From the NCBI GenBank assembly GCA_965226525.1, contig OZ245361.1, positions 468,938-532,937 on the forward strand: 64,000 bases of DNA, given 5' to 3'. Origin of the DNA: Spiroplasma sp. GTDB lineage: Bacteria > Bacillota_I > Bacilli_A > Mycoplasmatales > MT37. Below, in pieces: positions 13,585 to 38,883 of this stretch. The position numbers and the translations under genes are program-made. The notes under the pieces were generated by a model. The model was not told the DNA's origin, did not search any database, and was given only the letters and a program-made list of their open reading frames with translations. Within the stretch, counting starts at the first letter, position 1, and every line of letters starts with the position of its first letter.

Positions 13585-14520
13585 ATGACAAAAATTCAAA
13601 CTTTAGCAATTATTGGTGGTGGTCCTGCAGGTATTACAGCGGCAATTTATGCCAAGAGAGCAAACCTGCAACCAGTTATTTTTACTGACCAAATTGTTTG
13701 TGGCAAGGTTGCCAAAACACTTTTAATTGAGAATTTTCCTGGTTTTAAATCAACAACTGGACCCAAACTTTGCCAAAAGTTAGCAGAGCAAGTTAAGTAC
13801 TTAAACATCCAAGTTGTAAACCAAAAAGTAGCAAAGTTGACAGTCAATAAACAAGGTGTTTTTGTTGTTCAAACTTTTGAAAAACAATATTTTTTTGAAA
13901 AAGTAATTATTGCCTCTGGTACAAAAGAAAAAAAACTACCAACTGAGGGAGTTTTGAGATTGGAAGGGAAAGGTGTTTCATATTGTTCCAGTTGTGATGG
14001 ATACTTTTTTAAGAATCAAACAATTGCTGTTGTAGGTAGTGGTAATTCAGCTTTGGAGGAAACCAAAGTTTTAGCACAAATTTGTAAAAAAATTTACTTA
14101 CTTGCTTGAAAAGATAAGTTAGAAGCTGACTCTTTATTGATTGAAGAAGTGCAGAAATTAACAAATGTAGAAATAAAATACAACTCTATTTTGTCAGCGG
14201 CAAGAGGTAAGGATAAGTTGGAAGAAATATTAGTTACAAACACAAAGAATCAAGATAATGCAGTCATTGCTGTAAGTGGTTTGTTTGTCTATGTTGGTTC
14301 TTTGCCAAACACCGACTTTGTTGATTCTGAATGAAAAATTCTTGATAGCAAAGGTTATGTGTTGGTCAATAGTGTTTTTGCTACTAAAGTTAAAAATCTT
14401 TATGCAATTGGTGATGTTGCCAGTTCTAACATCCAACAATATACAACAGCAGTTGGTTCAGCTACAATTGCTTTCAAAGATCTTTTAACAAAAGGTTTTT
14501 TGTTCAATACAAACAATTAG
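13585..14520 (+). CDS. trxB: Thioredoxin-disulfide reductase
   Basis: IIGGGPAGITAAIYA (FAD binding), redox motif CSSCDG, VVGSGNSALEE (NADPH binding) and YAIGDV. TAG stop at 14518-14520. Confidence 0.9.
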
Positions 14521-19130: not shown

Positions 19131-19139
19131 TGTTATAAT
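19131..19139 (+). promoter_or_regulatory. Extended -10 promoter element TGTTATAAT upstream of rpoB
   Basis: Consensus TGnTATAAT preceded by a T-tract, 24 nt upstream of the rpoB ATG. Confidence 0.5.
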
Positions 19140-19162
19140 CTCTTGGTTAGTCTTTTCTTTTT

Positions 19163-25800: not shown

Positions 25801-26623
25801 AGTTGGTGTATTGGCATCACAATCAATTGGTGAACCAGCTACTCAATTGACAATGAGAACTTTTCATACTGGTGGAGTTGCTGATGTTTCAGATATTACT
25901 CAGGGATTGCCAAGGATTATTGAACTTTTTGATGTTGTTACTCCTCGACAAAGAGAAGCAATTTTAGTTCCTTTTGCTGGCACAATAACTGCTGTGGATG
26001 AAGTTGATAACTTGGATTATGAAGTTGAAATTACTTCTCAGGATAAGTTAAAAAGAGTTTTGTTTAAAGTTAAACATGGAACTAACTTTTTTGCTAAAAA
26101 ACATCAAGTTGTTGCTCCAGGAGACATCTTGACAGAAGGAACAGTTAATTTAGTCAAAATGTTAGCAACTACTAAAGACTTTAAAAAGGTTGCTAATTAC
26201 ATCATTGAACAAGTTCAGAAAGTTTATTGTTTACAAGGGATTGAAATTGCTGATAAGTATATTGAAATAATTGCAACTAAAATGCTTTCTCGTTCTAAAG
26301 TTGTTGAACCAGGTGATTCTCAATTAATGTTTGGACAAGAATTAGAGACTTATGTTTTGATTGAAGAAAATATGAAATTAGCTGCTAATCAACAAAAAAA
26401 GATTCAATTTGTTCCAGTTATTTGTGGGATCAAAAGTGTTGCTACTAAAACTAATTCTTTTCTTTCAGCAGCTAGTTTTCAGGAAACAACAAAAGTTTTG
26501 ATTAATGCTGCTATTGAAAACCGAGTTGATTCACTTTATGGTTTGAAGGAAAATGTAATTGTTGGTAACATTATTCCTGTTGGTACTGGTTATGGTAAAA
26601 AAGATGAAGGAAGTCAATCCTAA
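22886..26623 (+). CDS. rpoC: DNA-directed RNA polymerase subunit beta'
   Basis: Zn-finger region CSCGKYKRF..CERC, catalytic NADFDGDRM, and RGLMTNTKG. Track ORFs 22886 and 25211 are in the same frame. Confidence 0.97.
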
Positions 26624-27080
26624 ATTATTTCCTCTTAAGGTAGTAGTTGGTAGTGATCATGCTGGTTTTGTTTTGAAGGAAGAAGTTAAATCTTGGTTGT
26701 TGCAATTGGGTTTTTCAGTTAAAGACGTTGGTTGTTTCAACATTTCTAAGGTTGATTTTGTTCCCTATGCAAATAAAGCAGTTCAATTAATTGTTGAAAA
26801 GCAAGTTGATTTTGGTGTTTTATTTTGTTTTTCTGGTGTGGGTATGAACATTGCTGCTAATAGGTTTAAAGGTGTTCGTTCAGTTCGAGTTACACCTAAC
26901 GAAGAAAAAATTCTTTCTTTAGCAAGGAAACATAATGATGTTAATTTACTTTCCCTTGGCAGTGGTTTCACTACTTTAGCAGCAGCAAAAAAACTGCTTA
27001 CTGTTTTTTTGCAAACTACTTTTACTCATTTAACTCGTTATCAAAGAAGAAATCAACTTCTTGATCAAAACAGTAACTAA
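26604..27080 (+). CDS. rpiB: Ribose-5-phosphate isomerase B
   Basis: KVVVGSDHAGFVLKEEVKSWL... and FCFSGVGMNIAANRFKGVR are RpiB/LacAB motifs. ATG at 26604 overlaps the rpoC stop. Confidence 0.85.
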   Translation: MKEVNPKLFPLKVVVGSDHAGFVLKEEVKSWLLQLGFSVKDVGCFNISKVDFVPYANKAVQLIVEKQVDFGVLFCFSGVGMNIAANRFKGVRSVRVTPNEEKILSLARKHNDVNLLSLGSGFTTLAAAKKLLTVFLQTTFTHLTRYQRRNQLLDQNSN

Positions 27081-27099: not shown

Positions 27100-27108
27100 T
27101 GTTATAAT
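27100..27108 (+). promoter_or_regulatory. Extended -10 promoter element TGTTATAAT for the Cys-rich small ORF
   Basis: Consensus TGnTATAAT after a T-tract. It shares the TGTTATAATCT core with the rpoB promoter at 19131. Confidence 0.55.
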
Positions 27109-27138
27109 CTGAACTGTTTTGTAGGAGGTTTGGTGTAA

Positions 27139-27234
27139 ATGAGTTGTTCAAGTAAGTGTAATTGTTGTGGTTGTTCAAGCAAGAAGGATTGCAAATGTAG
27201 TTCTGATTGTAAAGATTGTAACTGTAAGAAATAG
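27139..27234 (+). CDS. Small cysteine-rich peptide (31 aa, 10 Cys), metallothionein-like
   Basis: MSCSSKCNCCGCSSKKDCKCSSDCKDCNCKK. AGGAGG at 27123-27128 lies 10 nt before the ATG. It has its own -10 element and an intrinsic terminator. It is absent from the ORF track because it is under 60 aa. Confidence 0.6.
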   Translation: MSCSSKCNCCGCSSKKDCKCSSDCKDCNCKK

Positions 27235-27276
27235 TTATATTCTGAGTCTTTTAACATTTAGTTAGAAGAAAGTTTT

Positions 27277-27312
27277 AAAAAAACCAGGATGTTTTTTTCA
27301 TCCTGGTTTTTT
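27277..27312. terminator. Bidirectional intrinsic terminator between the small Cys-rich ORF (+) and uvrC (-)
   Basis: AAAAAAACCAGGATG-TTTTTTT-CATCCTGGTTTTTT is a perfect GC-containing stem flanked by an A-run and a T-run. The uvrC stop lies at 27318-27320. Confidence 0.8.
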
Positions 27313-27317
27313 GTTTT

Positions 27318-28916
27318 CTATTCTTCTTTCTGTCTTGCTTTTTTCCTTCTTAAGTAATGAAGGTTTTTAATTACGTATTCATGACCTTGAGTTTGAATTG
27401 AGTTTAGAAAAAGTCAGGTTTTGCTTGTTTTTTTGATTTGGATTCTTTGCCCTTGACTGTCTAGAATGTATTCAGTTTGGTGTTTTTTGTTTTTCACTAG
27501 GCAGATTATGTGACAATCTTTTTTCAAAAGTTCCATTCCTGCTTTTACTCCTTGAAGTTGCAAAAAACTACCATCCAAAATGATTAATTTAGGTAGTGGG
27601 TTTTTTTGATAATGAAGAGTAATAGCTTTTTTGAAATACTCTTTTTCATTGTGTAATACCCCTTTTATTTGATAAATTTTGTTTTTTCTAGTTAAAAAAA
27701 AACCATTTAAGTAGTGGGTAAAGCCAGCAACTACTAATTTTTCATCAAAGTAAGATAGATCTAAAAATTCAATTTGTTTAATATTTTCTTCTTTTATTTT
27801 TAACTTTATTGCTAAATCTTTAAGAATTTGTATTTTGTCAGTTTGTTTTGCAACAACCGCCTTATTTTTCAATAAAATTAAGGCATTTTTTTTGACAAGA
27901 TCTAAGATTTCTTTTTTTTTGCCTGTTTGAGGAGAAATTAATTTAACTGAACAATTTTTGCTTCAGTTTTTTAAATTCACTTCTCTAGGAGCGATTATTT
28001 CTTCTGGTAGCGGGTGGTAAGTATAGATTTCTTGCAAGAAGTTTTCTATTGTTTCTTGCCTGTTGTTGTTAAAAAGACTGAATAAACCTTCTTTTTTGAG
28101 TTGTAGTTTGCCATGTTGATAGAAAAAAATTACAATTACAATTTCTTCTTCTTCCTCAACAAAGTTAATAAAATCAAGATTTTTATTATTATTGAACTCT
28201 ACTTTTTGTTTTTGGACAAATTCATCAATTTTTTCTGTTAATTTCTTTCATTTTTCTGCTTCTTCAAAATGCAAAATTTTCACTGCTTGGACAATTTTTT
28301 GTTGACATTGTTTTTTAATTTTACTTACTTTACCCTGAAAAAAAAGTTTTATTTTTCTGATTTGTTTTTGATAATAACTAGGATCTACTTTTTGGAAACA
28401 AGCACCAGAACATTGTTGTAAGTGGTAGTAAAAACATGGTTTTTTTGCTACAAATTTGCTACATCTTCTTAAAGGAAAAAGCATTTTGAGTAAATTAATC
28501 ATTTCTCTGGCATTGTAGTAATTTGGAAAAGGCCCATAGTAGATTCCTGGTTTTTTGATTCTCTTTCAAGTTAGGAAATATTGTGGGTCTTTATCCTTGA
28601 CCGAGATGAGGATGTATGGATATGTTTGACTATCAGTCAGGATAATGTTAAATCTAGGGTGGTATTTCTTGATTAAATTGTGTTCTAAAATGAAAGCCTC
28701 TTTTTCATTATCAGTTATGAAAGTCTCTCATTCTCTGATTGTATTAATCATTAAGGAGGTTTTGCTGTTTTTATTTTGACTTTGAAAATGTTGTCAAATT
28801 CTTTTTTGAATGTTTTTGGCTTTGCCAACATAGATGACATTTCTGCTTGCATCCTTAAATAAATAACAACCTGTTTTTTTAGTTGTGTTTTGTAAAACAC
28901 CTGCAAAGGCCTTCAT
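27318..28916 (-). CDS. uvrC: Excinuclease ABC subunit C; appears to lack the C-terminal (HhH)2 domain
   Basis: GIY-YIG region ([20 protein letters not shown]), a Cys-rich/UVR region (track ORF 28248-28502) and an endonuclease domain (IEFLDLSY..., [15 protein letters not shown]). The product is 532 aa and ends just after ...[20 protein letters not shown]. Confidence 0.85.
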
Positions 28917-33835: not shown

Positions 33836-33840
33836 GTTAC

Positions 33841-34050
33841 ATGAGTACTATGAAAGAGTTTTTAAAACTGGAACCAAAAAAACTTCAGGAGAAGTTACAG
33901 GAGTTGAAAGGCAGACTTTTTGTTTTAAGATTTCAGATTGCCAATGGTAAAACCAATAAATACAGTGATGTGAGAAAATTAAAAGTCCAAATTGCTCAGG
34001 TTCTTACCATTTTTAATCAGTACCAAGTGAAGAAAAAGGTTGCTTCCTAG
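33841..34050 (+). CDS. rpmC: 50S ribosomal protein L29
   Basis: EFLKLEPKKLQEKLQELKGRLFVLRFQIANGKTNKYSDVRKLKVQIAQV. Confidence 0.9.
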   Translation: MSTMKEFLKLEPKKLQEKLQELKGRLFVLRFQIANGKTNKYSDVRKLKVQIAQVLTIFNQYQVKKKVAS

Positions 34051-34087: not shown

Positions 34088-36949
34088 ATGAAGAAAAGTG
34101 TTGTTAAAAACAAGATAATTAAGACCAACCAAAGCATGACCAGACTCATGAATAGGAAGAAAAGTGCTGTTAAAAACAAGACAATTAAGACTATTTCTTG
34201 AACAAAGAGGTTAAAAGATCGATTTCTTTTTTTCCTAACCCCTAAAATTTCTGATAGGTTATCTGCTTTTTTGGAATATTGAAGTAGTTTAAAACCTTTA
34301 CTTTCTAAGATAAAAATATTGAATTTAGACCTTGATAAAGAAGATTTTTGAAAAAAAACAGGTTTAAATTGAAAAAGAAATGTTAATGTTGAAGGTGATT
34401 TGACACAACAGACTTTACTTGAGATTAAAAATAATCAAAAAATGATTATCAAAATTGCTGATAATTTGGATCAGAGTTTGTTACAAAAACTCTTGTCTTC
34501 TAAGGTAGATCAACACTTGCAAATGATTCAACCTTTACTTGCAGATGTTCAAATTTTTACACCATTGAACAACCTGTCAATTTGGCAAAACACAGGTTTA
34601 GTCTGGTCTGAAGATTTTGATAAAAAAGGAAAGATTAAGGAACACAAAATGGGCATTCTTTTAGAAGAAAATAATGCCAAATTTTTTTTAGCTATTTTTG
34701 AGATCCAACCTACTTTCTTGCTTGGTTTTCTTTTCCAACAGATTTTTCACCATTGAGAAGTAGTGAGAAGTGATTTTTGCAGGATTAAAAAAATTTTTTT
34801 TCCTTCTGATGATGATTTGATTTTTTGATCCCATTTTGAATTAAAAAAATCTTTTTTTGACAGTAATTGTTGTTTAAAGAAGGAAGATTATCTTCTACCA
34901 CTTTTGCAAAAAAGAAAGGTTGATTTGTTAAAAATTAAAGCAGTTAATGAAGTTAAGGTTCAACAGTTTGTTCTGAAAACAGTATTGAAATCTTGAATTA
35001 AAAACTCTTCACTGTTACAAAAAATCAAAAGTTTGAATCTCAGTCTTAGTTCAGAAATGAAGTGGAACAACTCTGGTCTGAATTTAGTTTATGATTTTAC
35101 TGAAGCAGGAAAATTCAGCAAGGAAGGTGAAAAAAAAATTGGTAAATATAAGACTGGTCAGTTATTAAAAATTCACTATGATTTTACTCCACATTTTTTT
35201 ATTGGTTTTTTAAAAAAACAGATTTTAAATCATTGAAAAATTCTGCAAAATTATCTCCAGAAGTTAATAAAGATTGATAGTTCTTTTTTTCAAGACAGTG
35301 GTTGAATCAGTTTGGAAATAGACATAAAAAGAGATCTTGATTCTAATTGGTTTTTTAGACCTTTGACAGATGAAAAAATTTATTCTTGAAAAACAAACAG
35401 TTTGTATCATTTTTTTAACTTGAATGCTAGTTTTTTAAGTAAAAAAATTATTGATGGAATTGAAATTCATTGAGATAAAATTTCTGTACCTTTACAAAAG
35501 GTTTTGATTTTTGATAAACAAAAGTTTATTGATTTACCAGTTTGAAAACAAACTGGTCTCAAGATTGAAACTGATTTGCAAGAAAATTGCAAATTGTTTT
35601 TTTCTGTTTTAAGGGATGTTGCTAATTTTTCTCTAGAGCAAATCTTGGCAATTAAAAAAATTAATGTTGTTTTTTTAAAGAAATTTTTTTTAGATGTTTT
35701 TCGTCAACACTGAAAGAATTTAGTTCCTGTTTTTAAAGTTGCTAAAAGTAGGAATTGTAATCTTTCTAATCAAGATTTTTGGTTTTTAACTAACCTGAGT
35801 TGAGAAACTGATCTGCAAGCTGATGGTTGATTAACTGCAAATACTATGGAAACTATTTTAAATAAGACAATTAAACAAATAACTGCAATTAAAAATCTAG
35901 ATGCTGTTAGTGTCAGAGAATTTTTGAATGTTTTTTCAGAAAGAAAAACAGAGTTAAGTGTTGCTAAAACAGGTAAAAAATTAGTGGTATCTAGTTTTTG
36001 ATCAAAGGTGAAAAGTTTTTTTGGTTTTCGAGAAAAAAAGCAACGTTCTATTCAAAATCGTTTAGAAAATAGTGTAAGTTTGAACAGTTTAGATCTGCAT
36101 AAAACCATTAAGAATCTTAATGATTATAAAAAAAGGATTACTACTTTGAAAAATCTACGAAAAGATTATTCTAATTCAATTATTAGTGATCAAGACATTG
36201 TTGCTACAGGGGTAGTAGGTATTCAACCTAAACGTTTTATTGCAGAACTTGAAGGTGTGACAAAATATTTTTTAACTGGCAACAGTCTCAGTCAAGTTAT
36301 TCAAAAAACTTATCTGAAGATTAAAACTGGTGATTTTGTTGTTGTTTTAGGTCCATCAGGAGCTGGTAAAAGCACCCTTTTGAATTTGATTTCAGGAATT
36401 GATAGTCCTGATGGTGGTGATTTATTTGTGGATGGCATCAATTTAACTTTGCTTGATGAAGCTGGTTTGACTGACTTTCGTCGTAAATACATTGGTTTTG
36501 TTTTTCAACAGTATAACTTATTGCAAAATTTAACAGCAGGAGAAAACGTTGATGTAGTGGCTACTCTTTTGCCTGAGGAAAAGGAACCATTGAATATGAA
36601 AGAAATTTTTCAACTCTTAGGTATAGAAACCCTTTTGGATAAATATCCATTTCAACTTTCTGGTGGTCAACAACAAAGGTTTTCTATTGCCAGAGCACTG
36701 GCAAAAAATCCTGATATTCTCTTTTGTGATGAACCTACTGGAGCATTAGACCAAGAAATGTCCAAAAAAGTAATGCAGATTCTTTTTAAAATCAACCAAA
36801 AGTATGGAACAACAATTATTCTGGTCACTCATAATCAAATTTTTTCTCAAATTGCTAAGACAGTTTTTCATTTTATTAATGGTAAAGTGGTTAAGATTTT
36901 AGAGAACAAAAAACAGTTAGAACCTAAAGACATTAGTTTTCAATACTAG
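34088..36949 (+). CDS. 953-codon ORF: about 640 aa of novel Trp-rich tandem-module N-terminal region in frame with a MacB/LolD-type ABC transporter ATP-binding domain
   Basis: I checked codon by codon and found no TAA or TAG in frame from ATG 34088 to TAG 36947-36949. Track ORFs 34400, 35033 and 36008 all lie in this frame, separated only by TGA. C-terminal motifs: GPSGAGKSTLLN (Walker A), LSGGQQQR (signature) and ILFCDEPTGALD (Walker B). The ATPase could also initiate internally at GTG 36008. Confidence 0.75.
34090..34191 (+). repeat. Direct repeat of 36 nt (2 mismatches), copies at 34090-34125 and 34156-34191, offset 66 nt in frame
   Basis: GAAGAAAAGTGTTGTTAAAAACAAGATAATTAAGAC versus GAAGAAAAGTGCTGTTAAAAACAAGACAATTAAGAC. 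The copies encode KKSVVKNKIIKT and KKSAVKNKTIKT at the N-terminus of the large ORF. Confidence 0.9.
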
Positions 36950-36963
36950 TTTATTTTAATTTG

Positions 36964-38442
36964 ATGACATCTGAACAATTAGTGCGTTTTAAAAAGTTGG
37001 AAAAATTAATTTCTAATCAACAAAATCCCTTTTTTAATTATTTTTTGCCTCGCAATCAGATTGGCAACTTATTGAAGTTTAATCATTTGACTAGAGAAGA
37101 AATTTTTCAAAAAAAAGCAAAAATAAACTGCCAAATTGCTGGTCGTCTTTTGCAAATTCGTAATTTTGGTAATTTAATTTTTGCTAAAATTGTTGATGCT
37201 ACTGGAGAAATTCAAATTTTAGTAGATAAGAAAAGAAGCGGAGACAATCTTTTAAGGCAGTTTATGGATTATGATCGGGGTGATATTATTGCCCTGAAGA
37301 AGGCAGAATTGATGAAAAGTAACTCTAATGAATTAACAATTTTGGTTTTTTCTGTAGTTTTACTGGTTAAAAGTTTACAAACCTTTCCAGAAAAATATCA
37401 CGGTTTAGTTGATACTGAAATTTGTTATCGTCAACGTTATTTAGATTTGTTGTTAAACAAAAATGTTCGCAATGTTTTCCAAAAAAGGTCACAAATTGTT
37501 CAAGAAATTAGAAATTTTCTTAACTGCAAAAAGTTTCTGGAGGTAGAAACACCAGTTCTTCACCCTGTTTTAGGAGGGGCTGCTGCCACTCCATTTCAGA
37601 CTTTTCACAATGCTTTAAAAACACCTTTTTATCTACGTATAGCGCCTGAGTTATACCTTAAGCAATTAATTGTGGGTGGTTTGGAAAAAGTTTATGAAAT
37701 AGGTCGGTTGTTTCGTAATGAAGGCATTTCTTCCAAACACAATCCTGAATTTAGTGCTATTGAAATTTATCAAGCTTATGGCAATATGAAAACAATGATG
37801 GAATTGGCAGAACAACTTTTGTCTCATCTTAGTCAAAAGTTGTTTCAAAAATATGATTTTTTGTACCAGAACCAAAGAATTAGTTTTCAACCTCCTTTTA
37901 AAAAAGTAAAAATGTTGGATTTAGTTTTTTCTGTTACTGGATTTGATTTTAGAAAGATTACCACTTTAGAGGTTGCTATTCAGGTTGCTAAAAAACTAAA
38001 AATAGTTGTTTTACCTTATCAAAAAACAATTGGTCATATTTTAAATTTAGTTTTTGAAAAACATTGTCAAGAACAGTTGATCCAACCAACTTTTGTTTAT
38101 CAATATCCCATCGAAGTTTCTCCCTTTGCTAAACAGTTGAGTTCTGATTCTCAATACACAGAAAGGTTTGAACTTTTTATCGCTGGTCAAGAAGTGGCTA
38201 ATGCTTTTTCTGAGTTAAATGATCCACAAGAACAAAAAAGAAGGTTGGAAGCACAATTGAAAGAAAGAAAATTAGGAAATGTTGAAACAAATGAAATTGA
38301 TCAAGATTATCTTTTGGCTTTGCACTATGGTTTGCCACCAACAGGTGGGATTGGTTTAGGCATTGATCGATTGGTAATGCTTTTGACTAATCAAAGCAAC
38401 ATTCGAGATGTTATTCTTTTTCCTACCCTTAAAAGAAAGTAG
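36964..38442 (+). CDS. lysS: Lysine--tRNA ligase (class II)
   Basis: YRQRYLDLL, FLEVETPVL, FRNEGISSKHNPEFSAIEIYQAY and GGIGLGIDRLVMLLT. Start is ATG 36964 (TTG 36961 is an alternative). Confidence 0.95.
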   Translation: MTSEQLVRFKKLEKLISNQQNPFFNYFLPRNQIGNLLKFNHLTREEIFQKKAKINCQIAGRLLQIRNFGNLIFAKIVDATGEIQILVDKKRSGDNLLRQFMDYDRGDIIALKKAELMKSNSNELTILVFSVVLLVKSLQTFPEKYHGLVDTEICYRQRYLDLLLNKNVRNVFQKRSQIVQEIRNFLNCKKFLEVETPVLHPVLGGAAATPFQTFHNALKTPFYLRIAPELYLKQLIVGGLEKVYEIGRLFRNEGISSKHNPEFSAIEIYQAYGNMKTMMELAEQLLSHLSQKLFQKYDFLYQNQRISFQPPFKKVKMLDLVFSVTGFDFRKITTLEVAIQVAKKLKIVVLPYQKTIGHILNLVFEKHCQEQLIQPTFVYQYPIEVSPFAKQLSSDSQYTERFELFIAGQEVANAFSELNDPQEQKRRLEAQLKERKLGNVETNEIDQDYLLALHYGLPPTGGIGLGIDRLVMLLTNQSNIRDVILFPTLKRK

Positions 38443-38499: not shown

Positions 38500-38883
38500 A
38501 TGAATTCTAAGGTTTTGTTAGTTCAGGAACAATCAACAAGGTTTATTCCTCCCAAAAAGAAGAAATTTACTTTGGTTGGTAAAGTAGTTCAAAATGTTTT
38601 GGATAAAACAGCCACAGTTGAAGTTGTTAGAAAATTTCGACACTCTGTTTATCAAAAAACTGTTTTTAGAACAAAGAAATATTTAGTTCATGATCCTGAT
38701 AACAAAATGAATTTAGGTGATCAGGTCTTAATTGCTAATACCAAAAAAATTTCTCTGAGAAAAAGTTTTTTTTTGGTGAAGATTTTGAAAAAAAGTACTT
38801 TTATTTCAGATGGCAAGGAGAAACCAGCAAAGGATACTGGCAGCACTTTTTCAGATGATTCTGGTATGAAAAAAACACTTTAA
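38500..38883 (+). CDS. rpsQ: 30S ribosomal protein S17 with N- and C-terminal extensions
   Basis: [56 protein letters not shown]. Confidence 0.9.

What the first reader, a model, noticed from the sequence alone, without database searches (positions are those of the whole stretch)
27100..27312. Stand-alone gene for a 31-aa peptide with 10 cysteines (metallothionein-like) in a Mollicute
The supplied track omits this 96-nt ORF (27139-27234), which encodes MSCSSKCNCCGCSSKKDCKCSSDCKDCNCKK. Ten of the 31 residues are Cys, arranged as CxC, CC, CxxC and CxxxC, and the rest are Ser, Lys, Asp, Asn and Gly.

The ORF has a complete expression cassette in an otherwise tightly packed region:
- a consensus extended -10, TGTTATAAT (27100-27108), sharing the TGTTATAATCT core with the rpoB promoter at 19131;
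- a full AGGAGG Shine-Dalgarno sequence 10 nt before the ATG;
- a perfect hairpin plus T-run terminator (27277-27312) shared with convergent uvrC.

Size, composition and Cys spacing resemble a single metallothionein beta-domain, which in mammals is about 30 aa with 9 Cys and ends in CKK. I know of no metallothionein-type protein described in Mollicutes. Alternative roles are a RiPP precursor, a redox or metal-chaperone peptide, or a Cys-sink.
Basis: partly seen in the sequence, partly recalled or inferred. Interest (0 to 1): 0.8.

Follow-up and report, generated by a model that had tools for sequence, protein, structure and literature searches.

The report
Conserved unannotated cysteine-rich micro-protein gene
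A real, conserved but never-annotated gene for a 31-residue peptide with nine conserved cysteines sits between rpiB and uvrC in a clade of tiny-genome Mollicute-like bacteria; it most likely binds metal ions through its thiols like a miniature metallothionein, but this is inferred from composition only.

Summary

It is a genuine gene. Four further genomes keep a 29-31-codon ORF in the same rpiB-uvrC spacer, each with its own extended -10, Shine-Dalgarno and terminator. These genomes are one clade (RpoC 68-77% identical; one is a 98%-identical strain). Eight Cys columns are invariant and a ninth shifts by one position. TGT/TGC swaps occur at five of the eight, indels are whole codons, and pN is 0.18-0.38 against near-saturated pS.

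No gene caller recorded any of these peptides. Pfam, NCBIfam, PDB and 1.8 billion representative proteins gave no hit.

Similarity to the mammalian metallothionein beta-domain is no better than composition (z = 1.0). The peptide is therefore metallothionein-like by definition, not by homology. No maturase, no co-directional downstream gene and no signal peptide are present, which argues against RiPP, leader-peptide or secreted roles.

An unexpected lead came from the metagenome scan: peptides with the same Cys skeleton lie inside nifS-DUF1858-ferredoxin-nifU operons of other low-GC uncultured prokaryotes. That raises an Fe-S or sulfur-trafficking alternative.

Function remains inferred.

The parts
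27100..27108 (+). Extended -10 promoter element TGTTATAAT. No -35 element is present, because only 19 nt separate it from the rpiB stop codon.
   Evidence: Read. TGnTAnAAt is kept at the same relative place in L002 (TGCTATAAA), L003 (TGTTATAAA) and L004 (TGCTAAAAT). The same 11-mer precedes rpoB. The transcription start site is inferred, not shown.
27123..27128 (+). Shine-Dalgarno sequence AGGAGG, 10 nt before the ATG.
   Evidence: AGGAGG or GGGAGG lies 9-10 nt before the ATG in all four orthologous loci.
27139..27234 (+). Coding sequence for the 31-aa peptide MSCSSKCNCCGCSSKKDCKCSSDCKDCNCKK. Conserved Cys residues are C7, C9, C10, C12, C18, C20, C24, C27 and C29. C3 is not conserved.
27278..27317 (.). 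Bidirectional intrinsic terminator: a 14-bp perfect stem and 7-nt loop, with an A-run 5' and a T-run 3'. It is shared with the convergent uvrC.
   Evidence: Equivalent hairpins with different sequences occur in L002, L003 and L004.
26592..27080 (+). Upstream neighbour rpiB (ribose-5-phosphate isomerase B). It overlaps the end of rpoC. No terminator lies between it and the peptide gene, so read-through from the rpoBC-rpiB operon is possible.
   Evidence: PF02502.
27318..28916 (-). Convergent neighbour uvrC (532 aa when read with genetic code 4).
   Evidence: GIY-YIG and UvrC domains.

Best explanation
The locus encodes a cytoplasmic 3.3-kDa peptide. It is transcribed from its own extended -10 promoter, probably also by read-through from rpoBC-rpiB, and it is efficiently translated.

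Its nine conserved cysteine thiolates, set among Lys, Ser and Asp, wrap a small metal-thiolate cluster. The likely stoichiometry is about three Zn(II)-type ions or four to six Cu(I). The peptide would then act as a minimal metallothionein-like buffer or sink for soft metal ions in a very small genome.

Shown: the gene, its signals, its conservation and purifying selection on the Cys skeleton.

Inferred: expression, metal binding, which metal, and the physiological role.
For: Coding status:
- Five genomes of one clade keep the ORF at the same site. Only the ORF, the SD and the -10 element are alignable in the spacer.
- Eight Cys columns are invariant and a ninth shifts by one position. TGT/TGC swaps occur at 5 of the 8.
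- Indels are whole codons. pN is 0.18-0.38 against pS 0.45 to saturation.
- Invariant sites by codon position are 13, 15 and 8 of 31.

Composition:
- The peptide is 32% Cys, against 1.1% in the long ORFs of the window.
- The window peptide has no aromatic or hydrophobic residues, no signal peptide and no TM segment. Lys residues flank the Cys residues.
- These features fit the operational definition of a metallothionein (established knowledge).

Exclusion of other roles:
- The neighbours in all loci are rpoC, rpiB, uvrC and rpsJ. No modifying enzyme, transporter or co-directional downstream gene is present.
Against: - There is no homology to any known metallothionein family. Resemblance to the MT2A beta-domain equals that of shuffled sequences.
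- No metal-responsive regulator, operator-like palindrome or metal transporter lies nearby. The gene looks constitutive, unlike smtA or mymT.
- The gene is absent from the syntenic site in the more distant relatives L134 and L136, so it is not indispensable there.
- Peptides with the same skeleton sit in nifS-nifU operons elsewhere. That points to Fe-S or sulfur chemistry rather than Zn or Cu buffering.
- No expression or metal-binding data exist.
Confidence: 0.45

Rival explanations
1. The peptide is an accessory of Fe-S cluster or sulfur trafficking. It would transiently carry an Fe-S cluster, iron or persulfide sulfur between a cysteine desulfurase, a scaffold and client proteins. In the Mollicute clade the gene has simply become unlinked from the nifS/nifU-type genes.
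For: - A DNA-pattern scan of metagenomes returned five roughly 30-aa ORFs (four distinct sequences, e.g. MTNKKCKCCGCNPCKCSPTCECCRCKKKKK). All share K-C-x-C-C-G-C ... C-x-C-x3-C-x2-C-x-C-K.
- Each lies directly after the stop codon of a nifS-type cysteine desulfurase and before a DUF1858 gene. In L127 these are followed by a 4Fe-4S ferredoxin and NifU_N, and in L130 by a PP-loop ATPase.
- Their alignment to the window peptide exceeds shuffles (z = 4.3-5.6).
- Two-gene NifS/NifU-like 'MIS' systems are recognised minimal Fe-S machineries (PMC12192291, abstract).
Against: - The look-alikes were selected by the very pattern they share, so the z-scores are circular. Beyond the pattern only about 4 extra identities are seen, close to chance.
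- Homology versus convergence is unresolved.
- In the Mollicute loci no Fe-S gene is adjacent, and none is evident in the 64-kb window.
- The Cys spacing does not match ferredoxin-type CxxCxxCxxxCP motifs.
Confidence: 0.2
2. The peptide is a thiol redox buffer or cysteine reservoir. An abundant Cys-rich peptide would cycle between dithiol and disulfide states through the thioredoxin system. Alternatively it would store scarce cysteine in an organism without glutathione-type low-molecular-weight thiols.
For: - Cys content is very high and the peptide is cytoplasmic.
- Strong constitutive-looking signals fit an abundant product.
- A thioredoxin-reductase-like gene lies in the window at 13585-14520 (row 3).
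Against: - A simple reservoir or buffer would not need nine Cys kept at fixed spacings over this divergence.
- No specific linkage to redox genes is seen.
- No precedent for a dedicated Cys-storage peptide in bacteria is known to me.
Confidence: 0.12
3. The peptide is the precursor of a modified product (a RiPP such as a lanthipeptide, ranthipeptide or SCIFF-like peptide), or it is a Cys-codon-rich regulatory leader ORF whose translation controls transcription or termination.
For: - Ser plus Cys richness is typical of thioether-forming RiPP cores.
- Very short ORFs placed before terminators can act as attenuators.
Against: - No maturase, protease or exporter is present in any of five loci.
- There is no leader/core division, because conservation begins at residue 6.
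- No NCBIfam precursor model, SCIFF included, matches.
- Genomes of 0.45-0.68 Mb leave little room for such pathways.
- For the leader-peptide idea, the only downstream gene is convergent and the hairpin lies 43 nt after the stop. No alternative pairing with the ORF was found.
Confidence: 0.05
4. It is not a functional protein. The conserved ORF would be a by-product of a conserved RNA or DNA element in the rpiB-uvrC spacer.
For: - No gene caller reports it.
- There is no homologue in protein databases.
Against: - Third-position and synonymous TGT/TGC changes occur while the amino acids are kept.
- Indels are whole codons.
- The ATG and SD are conserved while the flanking spacer is unalignable.
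- Rfam gives no hit.
Confidence: 0.05

Closest known systems
Vertebrate metallothionein beta-domain (e.g. human MT2A residues 1-31; Pfam PF00131)
   Same: About 30 residues with 9 metal-binding Cys. CxC motifs dominate, the sequence is rich in Lys and Ser, it has no aromatics and it ends in CKK. The nine conserved Cys would fit an M(II)3Cys9 cluster.
   Different: There is no detectable homology. No Pfam or PDB hit was found, and the alignment score equals that of shuffled sequences (z = 1.0). The Mollicute peptide is a free-standing single domain and has a CC-x-C block that the beta-domain lacks.
Fungal copper thioneins (Neurospora crassa Cu-MT, 25 aa with 7 Cys; from my own knowledge)
   Same: A single-domain metallothionein of 25-30 residues made almost only of Cys, Ser, Gly, Asn and Lys. 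It shows that a peptide this small can hold a Cu(I)-thiolate cluster.
   Different: It is eukaryotic and copper-induced, and the number and spacing of Cys differ. It was not compared by computation here, beyond the PDB sequence search giving no hit.
Bacterial metallothioneins SmtA/BmtA (PF02069) and mycobacterial MymT
   Same: Small cytoplasmic Cys-rich metal-sequestering proteins of bacteria. These are the only two bacterial metallothioneins whose biological function had been studied by 2020 (PMC7387436).
   Different: They are about 53-56 aa. SmtA has a zinc-finger-like fold with His ligands and aromatic residues. Both are metal-induced through dedicated regulators. The window peptide matches no Pfam model, has no His or aromatic residue, and has no regulator or operator nearby.
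SCIFF and other Cys-rich RiPP precursors of Bacillota (NCBIfam TIGR03973 class)
   Same: Short, unannotated-prone, Cys-rich ORFs in low-GC Gram-positive lineages.
   Different: Those precursors are about 45 aa with an N-terminal leader, and they are always next to a radical-SAM maturase. Here there is no model hit, no leader and no maturase.
nifS-linked roughly 30-aa Cys-rich ORFs found here in metagenomes (L126, L127/L130, L129, L131)
   Same: Same length. Same K-C-x-C-C-(G)-C ... C-x-C-x3-C-x2-C-x-C-K skeleton. Strong SD, Lys-rich ends, and uncalled by all pipelines.
   Different: They lie inside a cysteine desulfurase-DUF1858-ferredoxin-NifU operon, use the standard genetic code, carry 10-12 Cys and contain Pro. 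They are themselves undescribed, and their homology to the Mollicute peptide is unproven because the search pattern imposed the skeleton.

Membership tests
Metallothionein (operational definition) | Low molecular mass (<10 kDa) and roughly 30% Cys | tested here: met
   31 aa with 10 Cys (32%). Orthologues are 29-30 aa with 9-10 Cys.
Metallothionein (operational definition) | Cys in CxC, CC and CxxC motifs; few or no aromatic or His residues | tested here: met
   The window peptide has none. Orthologues have a single Tyr or His at position 4, and one has a C-terminal His.
Metallothionein (operational definition) | High metal content with metal-thiolate cluster spectroscopy | not testable with these tools
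   This needs the purified or synthetic peptide.
Vertebrate-type metallothionein (PF00131) by homology | Significant sequence or profile match, with the Cys register of the beta-domain | tested here: not met
   Pfam gave 0 hits at E<=10. PDB phmmer gave 0 hits. The shuffle test gave z = 1.0.
Bacterial SmtA/BmtA metallothionein (PF02069) | Profile match; about 55 aa; Cys plus His ligands in a zinc-finger-like fold | tested here: not met
   No Pfam or NCBIfam hit. The window peptide has no His. Foldseek on the AF2 model gave 0 hits.
SCIFF / ranthipeptide / lanthipeptide precursor | Adjacent maturase (radical SAM or Lan enzymes) and a leader-core architecture | tested here: not met
   The neighbours are rpoC, rpiB, uvrC and rpsJ in five loci. 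There is no NCBIfam hit. Conservation starts at residue 6.
Leader-peptide attenuator | A co-directional downstream gene whose expression depends on translation of the short ORF, with alternative RNA pairings | tested here: not met
   The only downstream gene is the convergent uvrC. A single terminator hairpin lies 43 nt after the stop, with no competing pairing.
Protein-coding gene under purifying selection | Open frame, start and SD kept in orthologues; codon periodicity; pN < pS | tested here: met
   Numbers are small (about 30 codons, 5 sequences).

The most novel reading that the evidence does not exclude
The Mollicute peptide and the nifS-linked peptides are one ancient, entirely unannotated family of roughly 30-residue nine-Cys micro-proteins. 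They would be shared by ultra-small-genome bacteria and possibly archaea. They would act as the smallest known prokaryotic metal or Fe-S cluster carriers, a missing accessory of minimal NifS/NifU-type Fe-S biogenesis.
Probability: 0.2. Interest if true: 0.8.

Novelty: new variant of a known kind. Interest (0 to 1): 0.62.

Why it matters
Bacterial metallothioneins are few, with SmtA/BmtA and MymT the studied ones. I found none reported for Mollicutes, whose metal homeostasis is poorly understood.

A 31-residue, nine-Cys peptide kept under selection in genomes of only 0.45-0.68 Mb would imply a function worth its cost. It would be among the smallest prokaryotic metal-thiolate proteins.

The case also shows a blind spot. 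None of ten such peptides is present in a collection of 15 billion predicted proteins. A whole class of Cys-rich micro-proteins, some embedded in Fe-S biogenesis operons, is therefore invisible to current annotation.

The peptide is short enough to be made by synthesis, so the central claim can be tested directly.

Tried and rejected
Searches that gave nothing:
- Pfam and NCBIfam scans of the window peptide and of eight related peptides gave no hit.
- The PDB sequence search gave no hit at E<=10.
- phmmer against 1.84 billion representative proteins gave no hit at E<=0.001. This search has little power for a 31-aa query.
- The search for homologous proteins refuses queries under 40 aa. A concatenation of the four peptides found 19 candidates sharing words, and none scored.
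- The viral-contig scan with the improved pattern gave 0 matches.
- Searching the literature for the sample accession numbers gave nothing. The host or habitat of the clade remains unknown.

A wasted scan:
- My first DNA pattern lacked the flanking Lys codons.
- As a result I have no species names and no genome-wide presence/absence data.

Structure:
- The single-sequence AlphaFold2 model has pLDDT 76.5 and pTM 0.31. Foldseek against the PDB gave 0 hits. This is uninformative for a fold that depends on metal.

Rejected leads:
- The L135 ORF after rpoC (MAILFNNKCSNDTNNSCCNNCKNNNCCSCNCCNCCC) is rejected as a demonstrable homologue. It scores z = -0.4 and has no SD.
- No operator-like palindrome is conserved at the promoter.
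- The P0075 and P0076 contigs were too short to reach the locus.

An error of mine:
- Row 4 used a sequence that I had partly mistyped. It must be disregarded. replace it.

Full report
**1.

The sequence at 27100-27312 is exactly as described.
- An ATG at 27139 opens a 31-codon frame that ends with TAG at 27232-27234.
- The product is MSCSSKCNCCGCSSKKDCKCSSDCKDCNCKK, with 10 Cys.
- TGTTATAAT lies at 27100-27108 and AGGAGG at 27123-27128, 10 nt before the ATG.
- A perfect 14-bp stem (27278-27291 / 27299-27312) is flanked by an A-run and a T-run. Its fold z-score is -6.5.

Read with genetic code 4, uvrC occupies 27318-28916 on the minus strand. The hairpin therefore terminates both convergent genes.

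The 11-mer TGTTATAATCT occurs only twice in the 64 kb. The other copy is 32 nt before the rpoB start.

Chance does not explain the ORF. With a TGY frequency of 0.029, about 0.001 thirty-codon windows with 10 or more Cys are expected in the whole window. No other stop-free window exceeds 7 Cys. Long ORFs of the window contain 1.1% Cys.

**2. The organism**

- The window has 30.4% GC and needs code 4. One of the two UGA codons in rpoC aligns with a Trp conserved in Bacillus and Erysipelotrichaceae.
- The same genome and its relatives appear in ENA and Logan assemblies as contigs of 0.36-0.68 Mb, several flagged circular.
- The nearest named RpoC sequences are only 45-47% identical. They belong to Thomasclavelia, Erysipelatoclostridium and Bacillus. 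The best PDB match is a Bacillus-type beta' subunit.
- 'Mollicute' in the broad sense is thus reasonable. The lineage is uncultured and deep-branching, and I could not name it.

**3. It is a real, conserved gene**

RpiB homologues led to syntenic loci with the order rpoB-rpoC-rpiB-spacer-uvrC(-)-rpsJ. Each spacer holds a small Cys-rich ORF:
- L002: MSSHKKCSCCGCRSSCSCPADCTKCDCKK
- L003: MKTYGKCSCCSSCEKSCTCCSSCKGCTCK
- L004: MSSYNKCNCCSCSKVNCSCPTDCTKCDCKH
- L125, a 98.2%-identical strain, differs from the window peptide only by S5N.

Conservation of the peptide:
- The alignment has invariant M1, K6, C7, C9, C10, C18, C20, C24, C27, C29 and K30. A ninth Cys sits at position 12 or 13.
- The skeleton is M-x4-K-C-x-C-C-x(1,2)-C-x(3-5)-C-x-C-x3-C-x2-C-x-C-K.

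Codon-level evidence:
- TGT and TGC alternate at five of the eight invariant Cys columns.
- All indels are whole codons.
- pN is 0.18-0.38, while pS is 0.45 to saturated.
- Invariant sites number 13, 15 and 8 of 31 at codon positions 1, 2 and 3.

Conservation of the signals:
- Outside the ORF the spacers are essentially unalignable.
- Every locus nevertheless keeps a TGnTAnAAt extended -10, an (A/G)GGAGG 9-10 nt before the ATG, and a terminator hairpin of unrelated sequence.
- Rfam finds nothing in this region; its only matches in the window are two tRNAs.

Phylogenetic spread:
- On an RpoC tree the five positive genomes form one clade with 68-77% identity.
- The more distant relatives L134 and L136 lack the ORF at this site.
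- The L133 contig ends too early to tell.
- L135 has a different Cys/Asn-rich ORF after rpoC, which is not similar beyond composition.

**4. It is invisible to annotation and has no known relatives**

- No gene was called at the site in any locus.
- None of ten peptides tested is present in the 15-billion-protein collection.
- Pfam, NCBIfam, PDB sequences, 1.84 billion representative proteins and a word-indexed search with concatenated peptides all returned nothing.
- The single-sequence AlphaFold model (pLDDT 76.5, pTM 0.31) has no Foldseek match.

**5. What it most likely does**

The peptide is hydrophilic and basic. It has no signal or membrane segment, so it should stay in the reducing cytoplasm.

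Nine cysteines held at fixed spacings, embedded in Lys, Ser and Asp, make the hallmark of a metal-thiolate cluster peptide. The peptide meets every sequence-level criterion of the operational metallothionein definition.

I therefore favour a minimal metallothionein-like metal buffer or sink (confidence 0.45). Nine thiolates would suit about three divalent ions or four to six Cu(I). This step is inference.

Evidence that tempers this view:
- Similarity to the human MT2A beta-domain is purely compositional (z = 1.0).
- No metal regulator, operator or transporter lies nearby. Expression looks constitutive, and it may be coupled to rpoBC-rpiB read-through, because no terminator precedes the promoter.

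**6. An unexpected rival**

A pattern scan of JGI metagenomes returned seven loci. Five hold roughly 30-aa ORFs with strong SD sequences in contigs of 32-36% GC that use the standard code. Examples are MTNKKCKCCGCNPCKCSPTCECCRCKKKKK and MKKNKKCKCCGCNPCICEPDCKCCKCKPCKC.
- In all five the ORF directly follows a nifS-type cysteine desulfurase.
- In the two loci long enough to read through, L127 and L131, it precedes a DUF1858 gene.
- L127 continues with a 4Fe-4S ferredoxin and a NifU_N scaffold. L130 continues with a PP-loop ATPase.

Such two-component NifS/NifU systems are recognised minimal Fe-S machineries (PMC12192291). This context suggests an Fe-S or sulfur-trafficking role (confidence 0.2).

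The caveat is circularity. The skeleton was imposed by my pattern, and beyond it only about four further identities are seen. Homology with the Mollicute family is therefore open.

**7. Other readings**

- A redox buffer or cysteine store does not explain the fixed spacing (confidence 0.12).
- A RiPP precursor or leader peptide is disfavoured. There is no maturase, no leader/core split and no co-directional downstream gene, and the genomes are tiny (0.05).
- A non-coding artefact is contradicted by the codon evidence (0.05).

**8. Novelty and verdict**

I found no report of a Mollicute metallothionein. Bacterial metallothioneins with a studied function were limited to SmtA and MymT in 2020 (PMC7387436).

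The peptide is best filed as a new sequence family within the polyphyletic, compositionally defined metallothionein kind. That makes it a new variant of a known kind, with function unproven.

Main weaknesses of this study:
- Only five sequences from one clade support the family.
- There are no expression data.
- Row 4 used a mistyped sequence and should be ignored. Searches are the valid check.

Noticed in passing
L126 655-750(-), L127 5794-5886(+), L129 370-468(+), L130 2687-2779(+), L131 1217-1312(-): Uncalled ORFs of about 30 aa and 10-12 Cys (KCxCCGCNPCxC...) sit immediately after a nifS-type cysteine desulfurase. In the two loci long enough to read through (L127, L131) they precede a DUF1858 gene. 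L127 continues with a 4Fe-4S ferredoxin and NifU_N, and L130 continues with a PP-loop ATPase, NrdR and a class II RNR. The contigs are low-GC, use the standard code and are of undetermined taxonomy.
   Followed up: partly
L135 7316-7426(+): A 23%-GC relative (RpoC 55% identical) lacks rpiB and uvrC at this site. It has a different 36-aa Cys/Asn-rich ORF (11 Cys) plus a terminator directly after rpoC. The ORF has no SD and is not similar to the window peptide beyond composition (z = -0.4).
   Followed up: partly
L106 6211-6291(+); L008 7245-7412(+); L012 7802-7981(+); L089 1146-1292(+): These are by-catch of the failed genome scan. L106 carries a 26-aa ORF, MSEKECPCCEGGECNCPEGCENCDCC, with a perfect SD in a 63%-GC genome. 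Streptomyces and Actinokineospora contigs share a Cys/Glu/Asp-rich ORF (..EGPW..CDCxCxCCEAC..CECCECCSCCDC). Both may be further unannotated Cys-rich micro-proteins.
   Followed up: no
window 26592-26623: The rpiB start overlaps the last 32 nt of rpoC. The same overlap is kept in the relatives L002, L003, L134 and L136. A pentose-phosphate enzyme gene thus appears translationally coupled to the RNA polymerase operon.
   Followed up: no
window 34088-38442: Two non-ribosomal genes are inserted between rpmC (L29, about 33840-34049) and rpsQ (S17, 38500-38883) inside the S10-spc ribosomal gene cluster. One encodes a 953-aa protein with only a C-terminal ABC ATPase domain recognisable. The other encodes a class II (Lys/Asp/Asn-type) aminoacyl-tRNA synthetase.
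   Followed up: partly
window 19131-19141 and 27100-27110: The identical 11-mer TGTTATAATCT occurs only twice in the window (0.08 expected). One copy precedes rpoB and the other precedes the peptide gene. This suggests a shared strong promoter type that lacks a -35 element.
   Followed up: partly
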